A stretch of DNA of 64,000 bases from Candidatus Aenigmatarchaeota archaeon (GTDB taxonomy: Archaea; Aenigmatarchaeota; Aenigmatarchaeia; CG10238-14; SCSR01). The DNA lies in NCBI GenBank assembly GCA_016187385.1, contig JACPJU010000001.1, positions 337,144 to 401,143 on the forward strand, given 5' to 3'. The number at the start of each line of letters is the position of its first letter. Position 1 is the stretch's first letter. Shown here piece after piece: positions 39,090-42,869 of the stretch. Both the position numbers and the translations under genes were made by a program. The notes under the pieces were generated by a model. It was not told the origin of the DNA. It was given only the letters and a program-made list of their open reading frames with translations, and did no database searches.

Positions 39090-42000
39090 TTAAACTTCAG
39101 GTTGCGGTATATCCTCAGGCAATCCTTTCCTCTTCCTGATAGCTCTGACAACAGATTCAAACAAGTCCTTTGGCACCCTCTCGAATGAGGTCTCTATAAG
39201 CGAGTAGAATCCTCTTCCGCTTGTCGCTGATTTCAATGACGCATCAAACCCAAACATATCGCTGACAGGAAGCTTTGCCGTGATGACAGAAGCGCCCCTT
39301 TCATCTTTCATGTCAATTATCTGTCCTCTCCTATTCTCGACTTCTCTTATGGCCTCTCCAATCAGTTCGCTTGGAATATCTATTCTGATAATCTGTTTCG
39401 GCTCGAGCATTTGTGCATTGGCGACAAGCATAGCTTGCCTGATCCCCCACCTGACAGCAGGCCTTATCTGTCCTTCGCCGCGATGGACAGGATCCTCGTG
39501 CAATTCCGCGTCGAACAATTTTATTTTCAATTTCGTGCACGGATCCCTCGCCAAAGGTCCGTCATCCATCACATCCACAAATGCATCCTTGACCATTTCA
39601 ATGACTTCATTCAGAAACTGAACACCTTTTGTCATGTCGATAAATACATTCTTGTTGTGCATGAAAACAATATTCCTCGCCTCGTCATAATCCATTCCAC
39701 TGTCCCTGAATTTCTGGAACAATTCGATGTTCTTCTTTTTGATCGTCCCATCGCTCGGCAACTCCCCATTCATCATGGCCTGATACACGCCTTCCTCCAA
39801 AGGCTCGACCTTGATGGCAAACTTGTTGTGTTTGTTCGGCGACTTGCCTTCTATCTCAGGCGAAGGTTCGAAAATAGTCTCACGATAAACAACGATAGGC
39901 TTGGACATCTCCACATCTATTCCCAAATCCTGCAGCTTGTGCTCGACTTTGATTTCAAGATGCAACTCTCCAAGACCAGAGACAAGATATTCGCCTGTTT
40001 CCTGATTTATTTTGATTGCTAGTGTGGGATCCTCCCTTCCCAATCTTTTCAATGCATCGACAAGCTTCGGCAAATCCATTGGATTCTTCGGCTCGATTGA
40101 TTTCGTTACAACAGGCTCGAACAAATGTTTTATTTCCTCGAACGGCTCTATAGTCTTGCCTGCGTCAGTCACAGTCTCTCCTGTAAACGCATCCTGCATT
40201 CCGACAAGCCCTACAATATTTCCCGCAGGGATTTCTTCCACAGGAATTCTTTGTATCCCCTTGTACACTGCAACTTGCTGTATCTTCTCCTGTTTTTTCG
40301 CTGTCAAGAGCTGTGCATCTTTTCCTCTGAAGACTCTCCCCGAGAAAACCCTCCCCGTCGCAACAAATCCAACATGCGGATCAGGAACCATTTTTGTGAT
40401 AATCATCGCAAGTTGACCGTCAGGATTGCACGCGAGCATGTCCTTTCCGACCTGTGAATCCAAATCACCCTTCCATATTTTTGGCAGCCTGTATTTTTGA
40501 GAATCTATAGGATTCGGCAGATGCCTGACAATAGTGTCCAAAACAACCTGATGCATCGGCGCTCTTCTCACCAATTCATCTTCATTCTCAGCAAGAGTCA
40601 ACTCGATTATATCCTTGAATGTGATTCCTGTCTTTTTCATATAAGGGATCGATATTGCCCATTTCCTGAAAGCAGACCCCATGACAACAGAACCATCAAT
40701 GACATTCACCAGCCATTTCTGCTTGTATTCCTCAGGTGCATATTTCTGAATGTACATGTTAACATCACGTATGACTTCCTCGAATCTTCTCTGCATCTGC
40801 TCGGGCGTCAGCTTCAATTCGCGAATGAATCTGTCAACTTTGTTGATGAACAGCACCGGCTTTACATATTCCCTCAATGCCTGACGAAGAACAGTTTCTG
40901 TCTGAGGCATTATACCTTCAACAGGATCTATCAGTACTATTGTTCCGTCGACAGCCCTCATAGCTTTTGTAACATCACCGCCAAAATCGACGTGACCTGG
41001 TGTGTCAACCAAGTTAATGAGATAGTCTTGTCCTTCGAATTCATGGACCATTGAAACATTCGCACCATAAACGGTCAACTGCCTCTTTCTTTCTTCGGGA
41101 TCAAACCATGTGACCATAGCCTTGCCAGACATTTCCTCGGCAATCATTCCCGCACCAGCCATAAGATTGTCCGTAAGAGTTGTATTGTGGATGATCAAAC
41201 CTTCTGCGACGAAGTTTTTATTATCTGGAACGGAAAAATCATAAACAAACTCTATGTTGTAAACTTTTCTAATTTCTTTAATTCTATTGGTATAAAACTT
41301 ATTATCAACAAATCTTTTAAGTAAATTTAGTTTTTCTTGAAGCTGAATAGTCGCGTTTTGACTATTTGTTTCTATTATATTATGAATCGTATCTAAAGAA
41401 TAACCAAGTTCTTTATCTGTGTATATTCTATTTCCGTTTGGATTCTCTAATTTTGAGAAATTATCTATGTTCAAATAATCGAATTTTTTATTGTTTTCAG
41501 ACTCAAATAGAAGTTTATCAAATTTATTTTGCTTATGAGGTAATTCAAATCCTATTTGAGAGTATGCGTATAGTGCTTTACCAGAAATATAAAGTACCCA
41601 TGCTTCAAATAACCTGTTATTTAATTTCACTTCTTTTTTATTTATCCAACTTGTGCACCCAAACTTTAATAGATTTAAGCTTAAACTATGTAAAAAGCCT
41701 TTACTGACTGATGTAGCCGATACAGAAGTTTGTTCTACTGTACCATCAGCATCCATGTAACCTCTTATAAAACTTGCAAGTAATTTTTTGCTAACAATTT
41801 CTAATATTTCTGGTATCTTTATATTGTGGCTTTTGTCAATTCTCGGATATTCAAAAAGAATTTCGAAGATCTTTTCAAGAGTAAAACCACCATTCAAATA
41901 GATTCTAGGACATTTTTTACCGTATACTTTAATAGAAGGGGATATCTGTAATATTTCTTTGCATATTTTAATGACTTCCTTGTGTATGTAAGAATCTTTG

Positions 42001-42869
42001 TTATCTAAAGTTAAATTTACACTACCGTCACCAAACATCAAACCAACTAAATAGAAAAATTTTCCCCATTCATATTCAGTTTTAGGAAGACGTAATTTTA
42101 CCGATGCCCTAGAGCCGAATCTTTTTAGACCTTTTCTGTATGAAAGGAACTTTATGTGCTCATATATATGGTCCTCTTTTACCCCAAATCTCTTAATAAT
42201 TTTCAATAAATCCTTCAATCTATACCTTCCTCTCCAAACTCCATGATAGAAGGAAAGTAATTTTAAAGGCGATCCTATTTCCTTCCAAACTAACTCTCTA
42301 TTATTTTCGACTATCCTTTTGTGTAGATGGTTTTTATATTCGTCATCAAGGTATACGTAAAATCCGATATCATCAGATAATTTTGTTAAGAAAATACGTT
42401 TTACCTCATCGATAGATACATGATAATAATCTAATTTTCTAGGGCATAGTACAGCATCACCGATTTTTAATTCATTAGAAGGTTTTTCTGTAATTTCGCA
42501 AGATTTGTCAAATAAAATAAACTTGTGTTCTGGAGTCACCTTGATACTTTTCCCATCTGCTAAAACAACTTCCAACAAACTTTCTGTTGATTTTAGTCTC
42601 CAAATATGTGTTACTTTTTTATTTTCTATTTTTAGCGCATCTTTGTTGAATGAAGGCACTGTAAAATCAAGATGGGAAATATCAATTATTTTTTCATCTC
42701 TGTTTTCTCTGACTAATTTAGAATTATGTTCAAATTCTTTGAAAATTGTTTCGGCTTCAACGAACTTGCCATTGGATAAAGCTATCCGAGTATCAGGAGA
42801 TACACATTTGCCATGATGAACAAACTCGTAGATATAGCAATTACTAAATCTATTGCGAGGACGTGGCAA
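39090..42869 (-). CDS. fusA: Elongation factor 2 (aEF-2) interrupted by a large LAGLIDADG-containing intein in the P-loop
   Basis: The 1259-aa ORF has a TTG start in the track. The exteins are EF-2: ...HHGK | [18 protein letters not shown]...DTPGHVDF...NKVDR..., plus the full domains II-V. The insert [14 protein letters not shown] ... GLIIHN carries intein block A and LAGLIDADG motifs [11 protein letters not shown] and [11 protein letters not shown]. Confidence 0.9.
   Translation of the reverse strand: [1259 protein letters not shown]
41184..42806 (-). mobile_element. Intein (about 541 aa) with a LAGLIDADG homing-endonuclease domain, inserted in the EF-2 P-loop (GK|TT)
   Basis: Cys1 at protein residue 22, C-terminal His-Asn at residues 561-562, +1 Thr. 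It has intein block A and two LAGLIDADG motifs. Confidence 0.8.

What the first reader, a model, noticed from the sequence alone, without database searches (positions are those of the whole stretch)
41184..42806. Large LAGLIDADG intein inserted in the P-loop of elongation factor 2
The fusA ORF is 1259 aa, against roughly 730 aa for EF-2. The extra 541 aa begin with the intein block-A signature [14 protein letters not shown] directly after ...HHGK. They end in ...GLIIHN followed by [13 protein letters not shown]. This puts the insertion exactly in the GTP-binding P-loop (GK|TT). The insert carries two LAGLIDADG motifs, so it is a full intein with a homing-endonuclease domain. EF-2 is essential, so splicing must be efficient. 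EF-2 inteins are uncommon.
Basis: partly seen in the sequence, partly recalled or inferred. Interest (0 to 1): 0.6.

Follow-up and report, generated by a model that had tools for sequence, protein, structure and literature searches.

The report
EF-2 gene: intein plus mRNA intron

Summary
Window 41184..42806 (-) encodes a 541-aa class-1 intein with a LAGLIDADG endonuclease. It sits exactly at GK|TT of the aEF-2 P-loop, and the closest relatives (82-87% identical exteins) have an empty site.

The 1259-aa ORF does not contain the real N-terminus. The true start (ATG 42921, [22 protein letters not shown]...) lies in another frame. It is cut off by a 31-nt insert (42823..42853) inside the His codon, 16 nt upstream of the intein.

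[quoted passage not shown] Cutting after the second bulge nucleotide on both strands removes exactly these 31 nt. That restores ...[11 protein letters not shown]..., matching intein-free relatives.

I found homologous or analogous 14-44-nt BHB introns at seven sites in aEF-2 of other DPANN archaea. They occur with and without the intein, up to three per gene. They show compensatory changes, and every one carries an early in-frame stop.

The intein is an ordinary new member of a known kind. The pre-mRNA BHB introns appear undescribed in the literature I could search, where only cbf5 is confirmed. No RNA data exist.

The parts
42854..42921 (-). aEF-2 exon 1: ATG start to the first two bases (CA) of His23. 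Encodes [22 protein letters not shown](H).
   Evidence: A separate 23-aa ORF in another frame than the long ORF. Matches the N-termini of intein-free relatives P0121-P0126.
42823..42853 (-). 31-nt BHB (relaxed HBh') pre-mRNA intron, AUAGAUUUAGUAAUUGCUAUAUCUACGAGUU. The central helix H is CUCG (42856-42859, in the exon) paired with CGAG (42825-42828). The bulges are CA|A and UU|U. The inner hairpin h' is at 42829-42852. An in-frame UAG lies at the second codon.
   Evidence: Fold. BHB register scan: best at shift 0, H 4/4 and h' 5+ bp. Unique in the window. Homologous introns at the same site in L108 and L111, with a compensatory A-U to G-C change. Background rate of such a motif is 1.7e-4 per junction pair.
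42807..42822 (-). Exon 2 start, which is the end of the N-extein: U GUU CAU CAU GGC AAA, encoding (H)VHHGK.
   Evidence: Joining it to exon 1 gives SSHVHHGK, as in the relatives.
41184..42806 (-). 541-aa class-1 intein with a LAGLIDADG homing-endonuclease domain. Cys1 at 42804-42806, block B TPEH at 42525-42536, blocks F/G at 41184-41246, terminal HN.
   Evidence: Pfam and NCBIfam profiles above cut-off. Block positions. PDB relatives PI-PkoII, MJ0781 (KlbA) and PI-PfuI inteins. GC 29.8% against 45.2% in the extein.
42021..42050 (-). LAGLIDADG motif 1 ([10 protein letters not shown], intein residues 253-262).
   Evidence: Conserved in the 49 intein-bearing aEF-2.
41739..41771 (-). LAGLIDADG motif 2 ([11 protein letters not shown], intein residues 346-356).
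   Evidence: Pfam LAGLIDADG_3 matches intein residues 343-415.
39090..41183 (-). C-extein of aEF-2: 697 aa starting [13 protein letters not shown], plus the stop codon.
   Evidence: The doubly spliced 725-aa product scores 999.2 bits on TIGR00490 aEF-2, profile positions 6-717. It is 82-87% identical to intein-free Aenigmarchaeota EF-2.

Best explanation
The gene is a functional aEF-2 gene of a DPANN archaeon. It is annotated as Candidatus Aenigmarchaeota, protein MBI2543020.1, on a 786-kb contig. Its product needs two successive splicing events of different kinds.

Step 1, RNA level (inferred). The pre-mRNA folds around the exon 1/exon 2 boundary into a relaxed bulge-helix-bulge motif. The tRNA-splicing endonuclease (EndA) cuts between the second and third nucleotide of each 3-nt bulge (CA|A and UU|U). 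An RtcB-type ligase joins the exons. This removes 31 nt and recreates the His codon CA+U. Ribosomes that translate unspliced RNA stop at the UAG two codons into the intron.

Step 2, protein level (inferred from conserved motifs). The 1266-aa precursor excises the 541-aa intein by the class-1 pathway, using Cys1, block B T-x-x-H, the terminal His-Asn and the +1 Thr. Splicing joins ...SSHVHHGK to TTLTDNL... and so completes the GTP-binding P-loop of a 725-aa EF-2. The released intein carries a LAGLIDADG endonuclease with both catalytic-motif aspartates. It presumably can home into empty alleles.

The two elements are independent of each other. The same or similar introns occur in intein-free alleles, and most intein-bearing alleles lack the intron.
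For: Intein:
- Profile matches above curated cut-offs and all splicing blocks located.
- 49 aEF-2 clusters share the same GK|C...HN|T junctions.
- The site is empty in the nearest relatives, at 82-87% identity. It is also empty within a 90% identity cluster of another lineage: P0244, 722 aa, against P0012/P0246.

Intron in the window:
- The true N-terminus is in another frame.
- Removing exactly 42823..42853 gives a product that differs at 3 of the first 60 residues from intein-free P0122.
- That removal raises TIGR00490 from 982.2 to 999.2 bits and Pfam GTP_EFTU from 149.3 to 162.2 bits.
- The only junction that restores the frame and the His codon coincides with a BHB register with H 4/4 and h' 5+3 bp. 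Such a motif occurs at 1.7e-4 of junction pairs in this window.
- The cut rule (between bulge residues 2 and 3) is the published one (PMC2738675). Applied to the window's own tRNA gene 55208-55324, it yields a correct 72-nt tRNA-Tyr(GUA). The organism therefore needs this splicing machinery anyway.

Intron family:
- The same site carries a homologous intron in L108/L109 and L111. All 13 pairs are kept, with one compensatory A-U to G-C change, one U-A to U-G change, and all other changes in the loop.
- Ten distinct 30-44-nt introns lie at HID|HGK in other DPANN lineages. Nine of them were aligned for the pair count; L112 was found later. 86.7% of cells are paired against 44% or less when the partner is slid. 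Six pairs show double changes, and 0 of 500 shuffles reach the observed value. This includes an exon/intron compensation AUCG:CGAK to AUUG:CAAG.
- Further sites are found in L003, L105/L106, L110 and L111, all with H 4/4.
- Removing the predicted introns gives uninterrupted 725-aa EF-2 in L110 (2 introns) and L111 (3 introns).
- Intron lengths are 14, 30, 31, 32, 33 and 44 nt. All 14 P-loop-region introns tabulated have a stop within 5 codons in the exon frame; the three further introns of L110 and L111 also carry one on reading. In the other two frames 8 of 26 have a stop.
- Several introns were seen in independent assemblies and samples: L003/L004, L087/L090, L092/L093/L095, L106/L107, L108/L109.
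- No second EF-2 from the 786,261-bp contig appears among the best 120 hits.
Against: - There is no transcript or protein evidence of any kind. Everything is inferred from DNA.
- In the window the outer exon-exon helix h is nearly absent (C:G, then a mismatch). The motif is therefore the relaxed HBh'/BHL type, which only broad-specificity endonucleases cleave (PMC5829648). The endonuclease type of this organism is unknown.
- I did not locate endA or rtcB.
- The window-type intron has only three members, so its covariation statistic alone is not significant (152 of 500 shuffles).
- A divergent EF-2 paralogue (<71% identity) elsewhere in the genome cannot be excluded.
- Intein splicing and endonuclease activity are inferred from motifs only.
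Confidence: 0.85

Rival explanations
1. Only the intein is functional biology. The 31-nt insert is a disabling insertion, and this EF-2 copy is a recent pseudogene.
For: As plain DNA the gene is frame-broken and the P-loop reads EFVHHGK. MAGs do contain broken EF-2 genes: L002 has an ~80-nt deletion plus a 45-nt tandem duplication.
Against: - The remaining 1238 codons, including the 541-aa intein, are intact. The exteins are 87% identical to functional relatives.
- No other EF-2 from this contig appears in the top 120 hits.
- The insert has the exact BHB register.
- The insert recurs, conserved with compensatory change, in two other genomes at 82-86% protein identity.
- Analogous inserts at six other sites all restore the frame under the same rule.
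Confidence: 0.05
2. The 31-nt insert is an assembly or sequencing artefact, for example a k-mer-sized chimeric joint.
For: 31 is a common k-mer size. This exact sequence is known from a single contig.
Against: Near-identical inserts at the same site occur in Logan assemblies of SRR12113420 and SRR12113431 and in ENA ERZ1292639. Analogous inserts occur in JGI, ENA, NCBI and Logan assemblies made with different assemblers. An artefact would not show compensatory base-pair changes.
Confidence: 0.02
3. The insert is skipped by the ribosome, either by programmed translational bypassing of the T4 gene 60 kind or by frameshifting, rather than removed from the RNA.
For: The insert is a short hairpin-containing element with a stop codon right after the last sense codon. 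This resembles the gene 60 take-off site.
Against: - There are no matching take-off and landing codons in the four cases examined in detail (W, L001, L003, L005).
- The restored His codon is split CA|U, which bypassing cannot produce.
- Lengths of 30 and 33 nt with in-frame stops exclude frameshifting.
- The paired exon/intron helix H, with cuts at bulge position 2|3, is what the splicing endonuclease needs. Bypassing does not need it.
Confidence: 0.04
4. EF-2 is made as two polypeptides, a 23-aa N-terminal peptide plus the rest, which assemble non-covalently.
For: Split genes are known in Nanoarchaeota (own knowledge). Gene callers do call the small upstream ORF in some relatives.
Against: - The break falls inside a codon within the P-loop.
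- The downstream part has no plausible start. The only one is a TTG that overlaps exon 1, and it adds 17 unrelated residues.
- L105, L106 and L110 break between or inside the Gly and Lys codons of GK.
- L111 would need four pieces.
Confidence: 0.02

Closest known systems
cbf5 pre-mRNA intron of Crenarchaeota (Watanabe 2002; Yokobori 2009, PMC2738675)
   Same: A short BHB-type intron inside a protein-coding gene. The BHB is unconventional (relaxed). The predicted cut lies between bulge residues 2 and 3. The intron is present or absent depending on lineage, and gene callers miss it.
   Different: - Different gene: an essential translational GTPase.
- Different superphylum: DPANN.
- At least seven insertion sites, and up to three introns in one gene.
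- Size range 14-44 nt.
- Co-resident with an intein.
- cbf5 splicing has cDNA and in-vitro proof. Here there is none.
Archaeal tRNA BHB introns (hBHBh' and relaxed HBh'/BHL forms; Marck and Grosjean 2003, cited in PMC5829648)
   Same: Same motif geometry and the same cut rule. The window's own tRNA-Tyr has a 45-nt intron that obeys it.
   Different: The substrate is an mRNA coding region. Helices h and H are built from codons, so they are constrained by the protein sequence as well.
P-loop inteins of archaeal aIF5B/IF-2 (NCBIfam PRK14845) and SRP54
   Same: The best non-EF-2 relatives of this intein (E 3.5e-38 to PRK14845). They are inserted at the homologous GK|T position of the P-loop: GHVDHGK|C...HN|TT and GQGK|C...HN|TT.
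   Different: The host protein is different, and identity is only 24-32%.
Other aEF-2 P-loop inteins of DPANN and a few other archaea
   Same: Same site and same architecture, 467-613 aa.
   Different: The window intein is at most 41% identical to any of them, while its exteins have 87%-identical intein-free relatives. Some relatives are ~195-aa mini-inteins.
HAC1/XBP1 unconventional mRNA splicing (Ire1 plus RtcB or Trl1)
   Same: Non-spliceosomal excision of a short mRNA intron by an endonuclease and a tRNA ligase, which changes the reading frame (own knowledge; RtcB link in PMC5829648 references).
   Different: It is eukaryotic and stress-regulated, uses a different nuclease, and has a stem-loop rather than a BHB substrate.

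Membership tests
Class-1 intein with LAGLIDADG homing endonuclease | N-terminal nucleophile (Cys, Ser or Thr) as the first residue, and block A | tested here: met
   Cys1. TIGR01445 intein_Nterm scores 56.9 bits against a cut-off of 24.5.
Class-1 intein with LAGLIDADG homing endonuclease | Block B T-x-x-H | tested here: met
   TPEH at intein residues 91-94, conserved as TTPEHK in relatives.
Class-1 intein with LAGLIDADG homing endonuclease | Blocks F and G ending in His-Asn, followed by a Cys, Ser or Thr at +1 | tested here: met
   [26 protein letters not shown]01443 intein_Cterm scores 24.0 bits against a cut-off of 15.6.
Class-1 intein with LAGLIDADG homing endonuclease | Removal restores a conserved host sequence, and empty sites exist in relatives | tested here: met
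   HHGK+TTLTDNL equals P0121-P0126. The doubly spliced product scores 999.2 bits on TIGR00490.
Class-1 intein with LAGLIDADG homing endonuclease | Two LAGLIDADG motifs with the catalytic acidic residues | tested here: met
   [10 protein letters not shown] and [11 protein letters not shown]. Pfam LAGLIDADG_3 scores 44.3 bits.
Class-1 intein with LAGLIDADG homing endonuclease | Protein splicing and DNA cleavage activity | not testable with these tools
   Needs expression and assay.
Archaeal BHB intron (substrate of the tRNA-splicing endonuclease) | 4-bp central helix flanked by two 3-nt bulges on opposite strands | tested here: met
   CUCG:CGAG 4/4, with bulges CAA and UUU.
Archaeal BHB intron (substrate of the tRNA-splicing endonuclease) | Flanking helices h (exon-exon) and h' (intron) for the strict hBHBh' form | tested here: inconclusive
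   h' is good (5+3 bp). In the window h is only C:G plus a G.U after a mismatch, so the form is relaxed HBh'. h is a full 5 bp in the HID|HGK family and in the 14-nt intron.
Archaeal BHB intron (substrate of the tRNA-splicing endonuclease) | Cuts between bulge residues 2 and 3 give the correct mature sequence | tested here: met
   Gives SSHVHHGK in frame. The same rule works for all 17 distinct introns examined and for the window's tRNA-Tyr.
Archaeal BHB intron (substrate of the tRNA-splicing endonuclease) | Base pairs maintained by compensatory change among homologues | tested here: met
   A3: 6 pairs with double changes, 0 of 500 shuffles reach the observed value. A4: one A-U to G-C change and 100% of cells paired, with n=3.
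Archaeal BHB intron (substrate of the tRNA-splicing endonuclease) | Splicing endonuclease and RtcB ligase encoded by the organism | not tested
   Only indirect: two intron-bearing tRNA genes lie in the window. The genes themselves were not searched for outside the 64 kb.
Archaeal BHB intron (substrate of the tRNA-splicing endonuclease) | Spliced RNA or excised (circular) intron observed | not testable with these tools
   No transcript data available.
Programmed translational bypass (T4 gene 60 type) | Matching take-off and landing codons that flank the gap | tested here: not met
   No matching codon pair in the four cases examined in detail (W, L001, L003, L005). The junction splits a codon.
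Programmed ribosomal frameshift | A shift of 1 or 2 nt restores the frame without crossing a stop | tested here: not met
   The insert has stops in the entry frame. Relatives have 30- and 33-nt inserts with in-frame stops.

The most novel reading that the evidence does not exclude
BHB mini-introns are mobile in DPANN protein-coding genes. They settle wherever a 4-nt exon word can pair with the intron's 3' end. Examples are xUCG with CGAx at two sites and CCAC with GUGG at two sites.

Their concentration 3-16 nt upstream of the intein insertion point would then not be chance. An intron there interrupts the DNA target of the intein's homing endonuclease without changing the protein. An RNA-level element would thus immunise an essential gene against a protein-level selfish element. 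Alternatively, the introns could arise as repair products of endonuclease breaks.

The wider corollary is that mRNA splicing by the tRNA machinery is common in these genomes, and that many 'truncated' or 'split' DPANN genes are intron-containing.
Probability: 0.15. Interest if true: 0.9.

Novelty: new variant of a known kind. Interest (0 to 1): 0.78.

Why it matters
The intein alone is a routine addition to a well-populated class, the P-loop GTPase inteins. The intron is not routine.

- **Rarity.** For more than twenty years cbf5 of Crenarchaeota has been the only archaeal protein gene with a confirmed BHB intron. PMC7714728 (2020) still says the BHB motif is known in 'one mRNA'.
- **What is new here.** An essential, highly expressed translation factor carries such introns in several DPANN lineages. 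They occupy at least seven sites, with up to three introns per gene, and they are supported by covariation.
- **If confirmed by RNA data**, this shows that the tRNA-splicing machinery routinely matures mRNAs in these organisms. It gives a natural system for asking how BHB introns are gained and moved.
- **Annotation consequences.** It exposes a systematic error in MAG annotation. MBI2543020.1 and many relatives are called from wrong starts or as truncated proteins. This affects marker-gene phylogenies that use EF-2.
- **An unusual pairing.** One P-loop needs RNA splicing and protein splicing in succession to be made, which is rare and experimentally attractive.

Tried and rejected
- ARAGORN found no tRNA in the window. 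Rfam did, because both tRNA genes carry long introns.
- Of five N-truncated intein-EF-2 proteins, L006 was simply a late start call. L002 is a differently damaged gene, with a deletion plus a tandem duplication, and was not used.
- MAFFT on all 11 intron contexts aligned by exon homology and shifted W and L003. I therefore analysed the same-site families separately.
- A generic BHB-plus-ORF scan of the 64-kb window gave hundreds of candidates and is useless without homology. I cannot say whether other genes in the window carry introns.
- The metagenome pattern scan returned 9 chance matches among 18 loci. By design it could find only GCC CAT ATH GAY ... CAY GGG AAR TG alleles. Helix h is therefore invariant in A3 and says nothing.
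- Rfam has no family for the intron region.
- The promoter and terminator scan was uninformative.
- Literature searches for EF-2 inteins found no dedicated description. The supplement of PMC4760082 is not held. My recollection that InBase lists an EF2 intein from Methanopyrus kandleri could not be checked.
- I considered and dropped the idea that intron and intein travel together as one composite element. Intein-free alleles carry the same introns.

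
Full report
**1. The observation**

The window carries an archaeal str-operon segment on the minus strand: NusA 45368-45790, S12 44944-45366, S7 44064-44666, EF-2, and EF-1alpha 37761-39038. The mechanical ORF 39090..42869 is 1259 aa. The insert runs from Cys at 42806 to Asn at 41184, which is 541 aa.

Curated profiles match above their cut-offs. These are Pfam Intein_splicing and LAGLIDADG_3 and NCBIfam intein_Nterm and intein_Cterm. I located blocks A, B (TPEH), C and E (two LAGLIDADG motifs with their aspartates), F and G (HN), and the +1 Thr. 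By sequence, the nearest solved structures are archaeal inteins: PI-PkoII, the MJ0781 (KlbA) intein, CDC21 and PI-PfuI.

**2. The intein in context**

The exact protein is in NCBI as MBI2543020.1, 'MAG: elongation factor EF-2 [Candidatus Aenigmarchaeota archaeon]', on a 786,261-bp contig.

- **Other intein-bearing aEF-2.** 48 further aEF-2 clusters carry an intein of 467-613 aa at the same GK|C...HN|T site. They come from Aenigmarchaeota-like, Nanoarchaeia, Woese-/Pacearchaeota, Nanohaloarchaea and one Conexivisphaerales genome.
- **Species representatives.** A scan of one genome per species found about 35 more loci. It added Iainarchaeum, Micrarchaeales, Thermoplasmata, Hadesarchaea and a Halobacteriales MAG. 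Some of these are ~195-aa mini-inteins.
- **Related inteins in other GTPases.** The closest non-EF-2 relatives sit at the homologous P-loop position of aIF5B and SRP54.
- **Empty sites.** A search with the spliced exteins found intein-free EF-2 of 725-730 aa at 82-87% identity (P0121-P0128). The nearest intein-bearing allele has only 75% extein identity. No intein is more than 41% identical to this one.
- **Composition.** The intein has 29.8% GC (GC3 24%) against 45.2% (GC3 49%) for the extein.

Together this indicates lateral acquisition, or repeated loss in relatives, which is the usual homing cycle. In another lineage, intein-free and intein-bearing alleles occur within one 90%-identity cluster.

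**3.

The N-extein of the long ORF reads [21 protein letters not shown]. In the close relatives the P-loop is ...IRN[IV][10 protein letters not shown].

Three-frame translation shows the real N-terminus, [23 protein letters not shown]. It is a 23-codon ORF starting at ATG 42921 in another frame. Comparison with relatives places a 31-nt insert inside the His codon: ACG TCC TCG CA|ATAGATTTAGTAATTGCTATATCTACGAGTT|T GTT CAT CAT GGC AAA|TGT (window 42823..42853). Its 3' end lies 16 nt before the intein.

Removing it gives a 725-aa product after intein removal. That product differs at 3 of its first 60 residues from intein-free P0122. It also scores 17 bits higher on TIGR00490 and 13 bits higher on Pfam GTP_EFTU than the TTG-ORF version.

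**4. Anatomy of the insert**

The RNA fold gives three elements:
- a 4-bp helix, CUCG (exon) paired with CGAG (intron 3' end);
- a 3-nt bulge CAA followed by a hairpin, UAGAU/AUCUA plus UAGU/GCUA;
- UUU after the helix on the other strand.

This is the bulge-helix-bulge geometry. The published cut position is between bulge residues 2 and 3 (PMC2738675). That gives CA|A and UU|U, which is exactly the frame- and codon-restoring junction.

A register scan shows this is the best BHB within +/-12 nt, and that no other same-length shift fits. A motif of this grade occurs at 1.7e-4 of junction pairs in the window. The outer helix h is weak, so the motif is the relaxed HBh' type.

The same rule, applied to the window's tRNA gene 55208-55324, removes a 45-nt intron at position 37/38. 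It yields a 72-nt tRNA-Tyr(GUA) that ARAGORN accepts. The splicing machinery must therefore exist in this organism. Rfam has no family for the EF-2 region.

**5. Recurrence elsewhere**

I checked N-truncated EF-2 calls and ran one DNA-pattern scan of metagenomes. These turned up the following introns.

| Site in aEF-2 | Position relative to the intein point | Loci | Intein present? | Length (nt) | Central helix H |
|---|---|---|---|---|---|
| TCG CA\|T (window site) | 16 nt upstream | W | yes | 31 | CUCG:CGAG |
| TCG CA\|T (window site) | 16 nt upstream | L108/L109 | no | 32 | CUCG:CGGG |
| TCG CA\|T (window site) | 16 nt upstream | L111 | no | 31 | CUCG:CGAG |
| AT\|A GAT | 13 nt upstream | L003/L004/L041 | yes | 32 | GCAU:GUGC |
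| HID\|HGK | 9 nt upstream | L001, L005, L087/L090, L088, L092/L093/L095, L097, L100, L101, L112 (ten distinct introns) | yes | 30-44 | AUCG:CGAU or CGAG |
| GG\|A AAA | 4 nt upstream | L105, L106/L107 | no | 33 | CCAC:GUGG |
| GGA\|AAA | 3 nt upstream | L110 | no | 30 | CACG:CGUG |
| GGT AA\|A GCC | 62 nt downstream | L110, L111 | no | 14 | CGGU:ACUG |
| G3 motif DTPGHV\|DFGG | further downstream (exact distance not computed) | L111 | no | 31 | CCAC:GUGG |

- The HID|HGK family forms a canonical hBHBh' with h CCCAU:AUGGG.
- The 14-nt intron has a perfect 5-bp h, AUGGC:GCCAU.
- In every case H is 3-4 of 4 at the frame-restoring junction, except L001 (2 of 4) and L005 (1 of 4, or 3 bp in a shifted register).
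- Removing the predicted introns from L110 and L111 yields uninterrupted 725-aa EF-2.

**6. Covariation and other signs of selection**

For nine HID|HGK introns (L112 was found later and is not in this alignment), 86.7% of cells pair, against 44% or less with slid partners. Six pairs have changes on both sides, and no shuffle of 500 reaches the observed values. One of those changes couples an exon codon change (ATC to ATT) with an intron change (CGAG to CAAG).

For the window-type intron (n=3), all 13 pairs are kept. One A-U becomes G-C and one U-A becomes U-G. Every other substitution lies in the loop. With three sequences this is consistent but not significant by itself.

All 14 P-loop-region introns tabulated carry a stop codon within the first five codons of the entry frame, and the three further introns of L110 and L111 do as well on reading. 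In the other two frames only 8 of 26 have a stop. This fits selection to abort translation of unspliced RNA.

Lengths of 14, 30, 31, 32, 33 and 44 nt, and a split codon, exclude frameshifting. The four cases examined in detail (W, L001, L003, L005) have no matching take-off and landing codons, which argues against bypassing. Occurrence in independent samples and assemblers excludes an artefact.

**7. Relation between intron and intein**

They are independent. Most intein-bearing alleles lack an intron: 4 of 49 protein clusters, and 1 of about 35 species representatives, have one. At least four of the roughly 115 intein-free Aenigmarchaeota clusters carry introns (P0129, P0130, P0132, P0169); the 635-aa P0212 is a fifth, and its near-twin P0214 was not examined.

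Five of the seven sites lie 3-16 nt upstream of the intein insertion point. However, my searches were biased towards N-terminal truncations. Two sites lie further downstream. The clustering is therefore only suggestive. The idea that such introns break the homing-endonuclease target is speculation.

**8. Comparison with what is known**

In the literature I could search:
- Coding-region BHB introns are confirmed only for crenarchaeal cbf5 (PMC2738675; PMC5829648).
- A 2020 study still speaks of 'one mRNA', and adds a Haloferax mRNA (HVO_1309) that the endonuclease cleaves (PMC7714728).
- Searches combining DPANN or Aenigmarchaeota, intron, protein-coding and elongation factor found nothing relevant.
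- DPANN endonucleases with the L3 loop are associated with increased tRNA gene disruption (PMC5829648). This makes cleavage of relaxed motifs plausible.

I cannot exclude a description in papers outside the held library.

**9. Verdict**

The intein is real, complete and correctly placed. It is a new member of a common kind and is already present, unremarked, in a public annotation.

It belongs to an apparently undescribed set of pre-mRNA introns in DPANN aEF-2. The evidence is strong but purely computational. Steps 1 and 2 of the next-steps list would settle the matter.

Noticed in passing
window 55208-55324 (-) and 53358-53467 (-): Two tRNA genes of 117 and 110 nt that ARAGORN misses and Rfam finds. 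The first is tRNA-Tyr(GUA) with a canonical 45-nt BHB intron at position 37/38. The second has about 40 extra nt in the anticodon region, which I did not resolve.
   Followed up: partly
window 41184-42806 versus 39090-41183: The intein is much more AT-rich than its host gene. GC is 29.8% against 45.2%, and GC3 is 24% against 49%. The window overall is 38.5% GC. This is consistent with foreign origin or relaxed constraint.
   Followed up: partly
window 43344-44051 (+) and 43008-43229 (-): A 235-aa ORF with no Pfam hit lies on the opposite strand between S7 and EF-2. A 73-aa ORF with a weak winged-helix/IclR-type HTH match lies directly upstream of EF-2. Relatives have other genes in this position (an SNase-domain gene, or diphthine-ammonia ligase).
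   Followed up: partly
window 12144-12215 (+): Rfam DUF3800-X RNA match, 75.8 bits, full length.
   Followed up: no
L111:468-498, 577-590, 723-753 and L110:284-313, 379-392: Intein-free Aenigmarchaeota EF-2 genes with three and two BHB introns respectively. They include a 14-nt mini-intron with a perfect 5-bp exon-exon helix, and one intron inside the G3 motif [10 protein letters not shown]. Removing them gives intact 725-aa proteins.
   Followed up: yes
all 17 distinct introns (W, L001, L003, L005, L087, L088, L092, L097, L100, L101, L105, L106, L108, L110, L111, L112): Every intron has a stop codon within the first 1-5 codons of the upstream reading frame. Stops are much rarer in the other two frames (8 of 26).
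   Followed up: yes
L105/L106 P-loop intron and L111:723-753: Introns at two different sites share the same exon word and intron 3' end: CCAC NN| paired with GUGG AA|. Likewise xUCG NN| pairs with CGAx at the window site and at the HID|HGK site. This could reflect intron transposition guided by the 4-bp helix.
   Followed up: no
L028, L030, L033, L035, L040: Mini-inteins of about 195 aa, with no endonuclease domain, at the same GK|T site of aEF-2. This is the expected late stage of the homing cycle.
   Followed up: partly
L106:736-2292 (+): A 518-aa ORF with faint LAGLIDADG_3 and HTH hits lies immediately upstream of an intein-free, intron-bearing EF-2. It is possibly a free-standing homing endonuclease.
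   Followed up: no
P0051, P0053 (aIF5B) and P0055, P0086 (SRP54): Related inteins sit at the homologous P-loop position GK|T of two other GTPases: GHVDHGK|C...HN|TT and GQGK|C...HN|TT.
   Followed up: partly
P0018 and P0031 (Nanohaloarchaea-type EF-2 inteins): The penultimate intein residue is Gln or Glu instead of His (...VVQN|T and ...VVEN|T).
   Followed up: no
L002 (GCA_017610385.1), L014, L037: L002 EF-2 lacks about 80 nt, from IRNIG to intein residue ~20, and has a 45-nt tandem duplication. In L014 and L037 the C-extein ORF stops early with frameshift-like tails. These may be assembly errors, pseudogenes or further interruptions.
   Followed up: no
P0001 / MBI2543020.1, P0008, P0012, P0030, P0129, P0130, P0132, P0169, P0212, P0246: Public gene calls for these EF-2 genes start at wrong codons or inside the gene because of the introns. 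P0246 even reads an intron in a wrong frame as protein (VSAHISIESKLLLIFREHGKC).
   Followed up: yes
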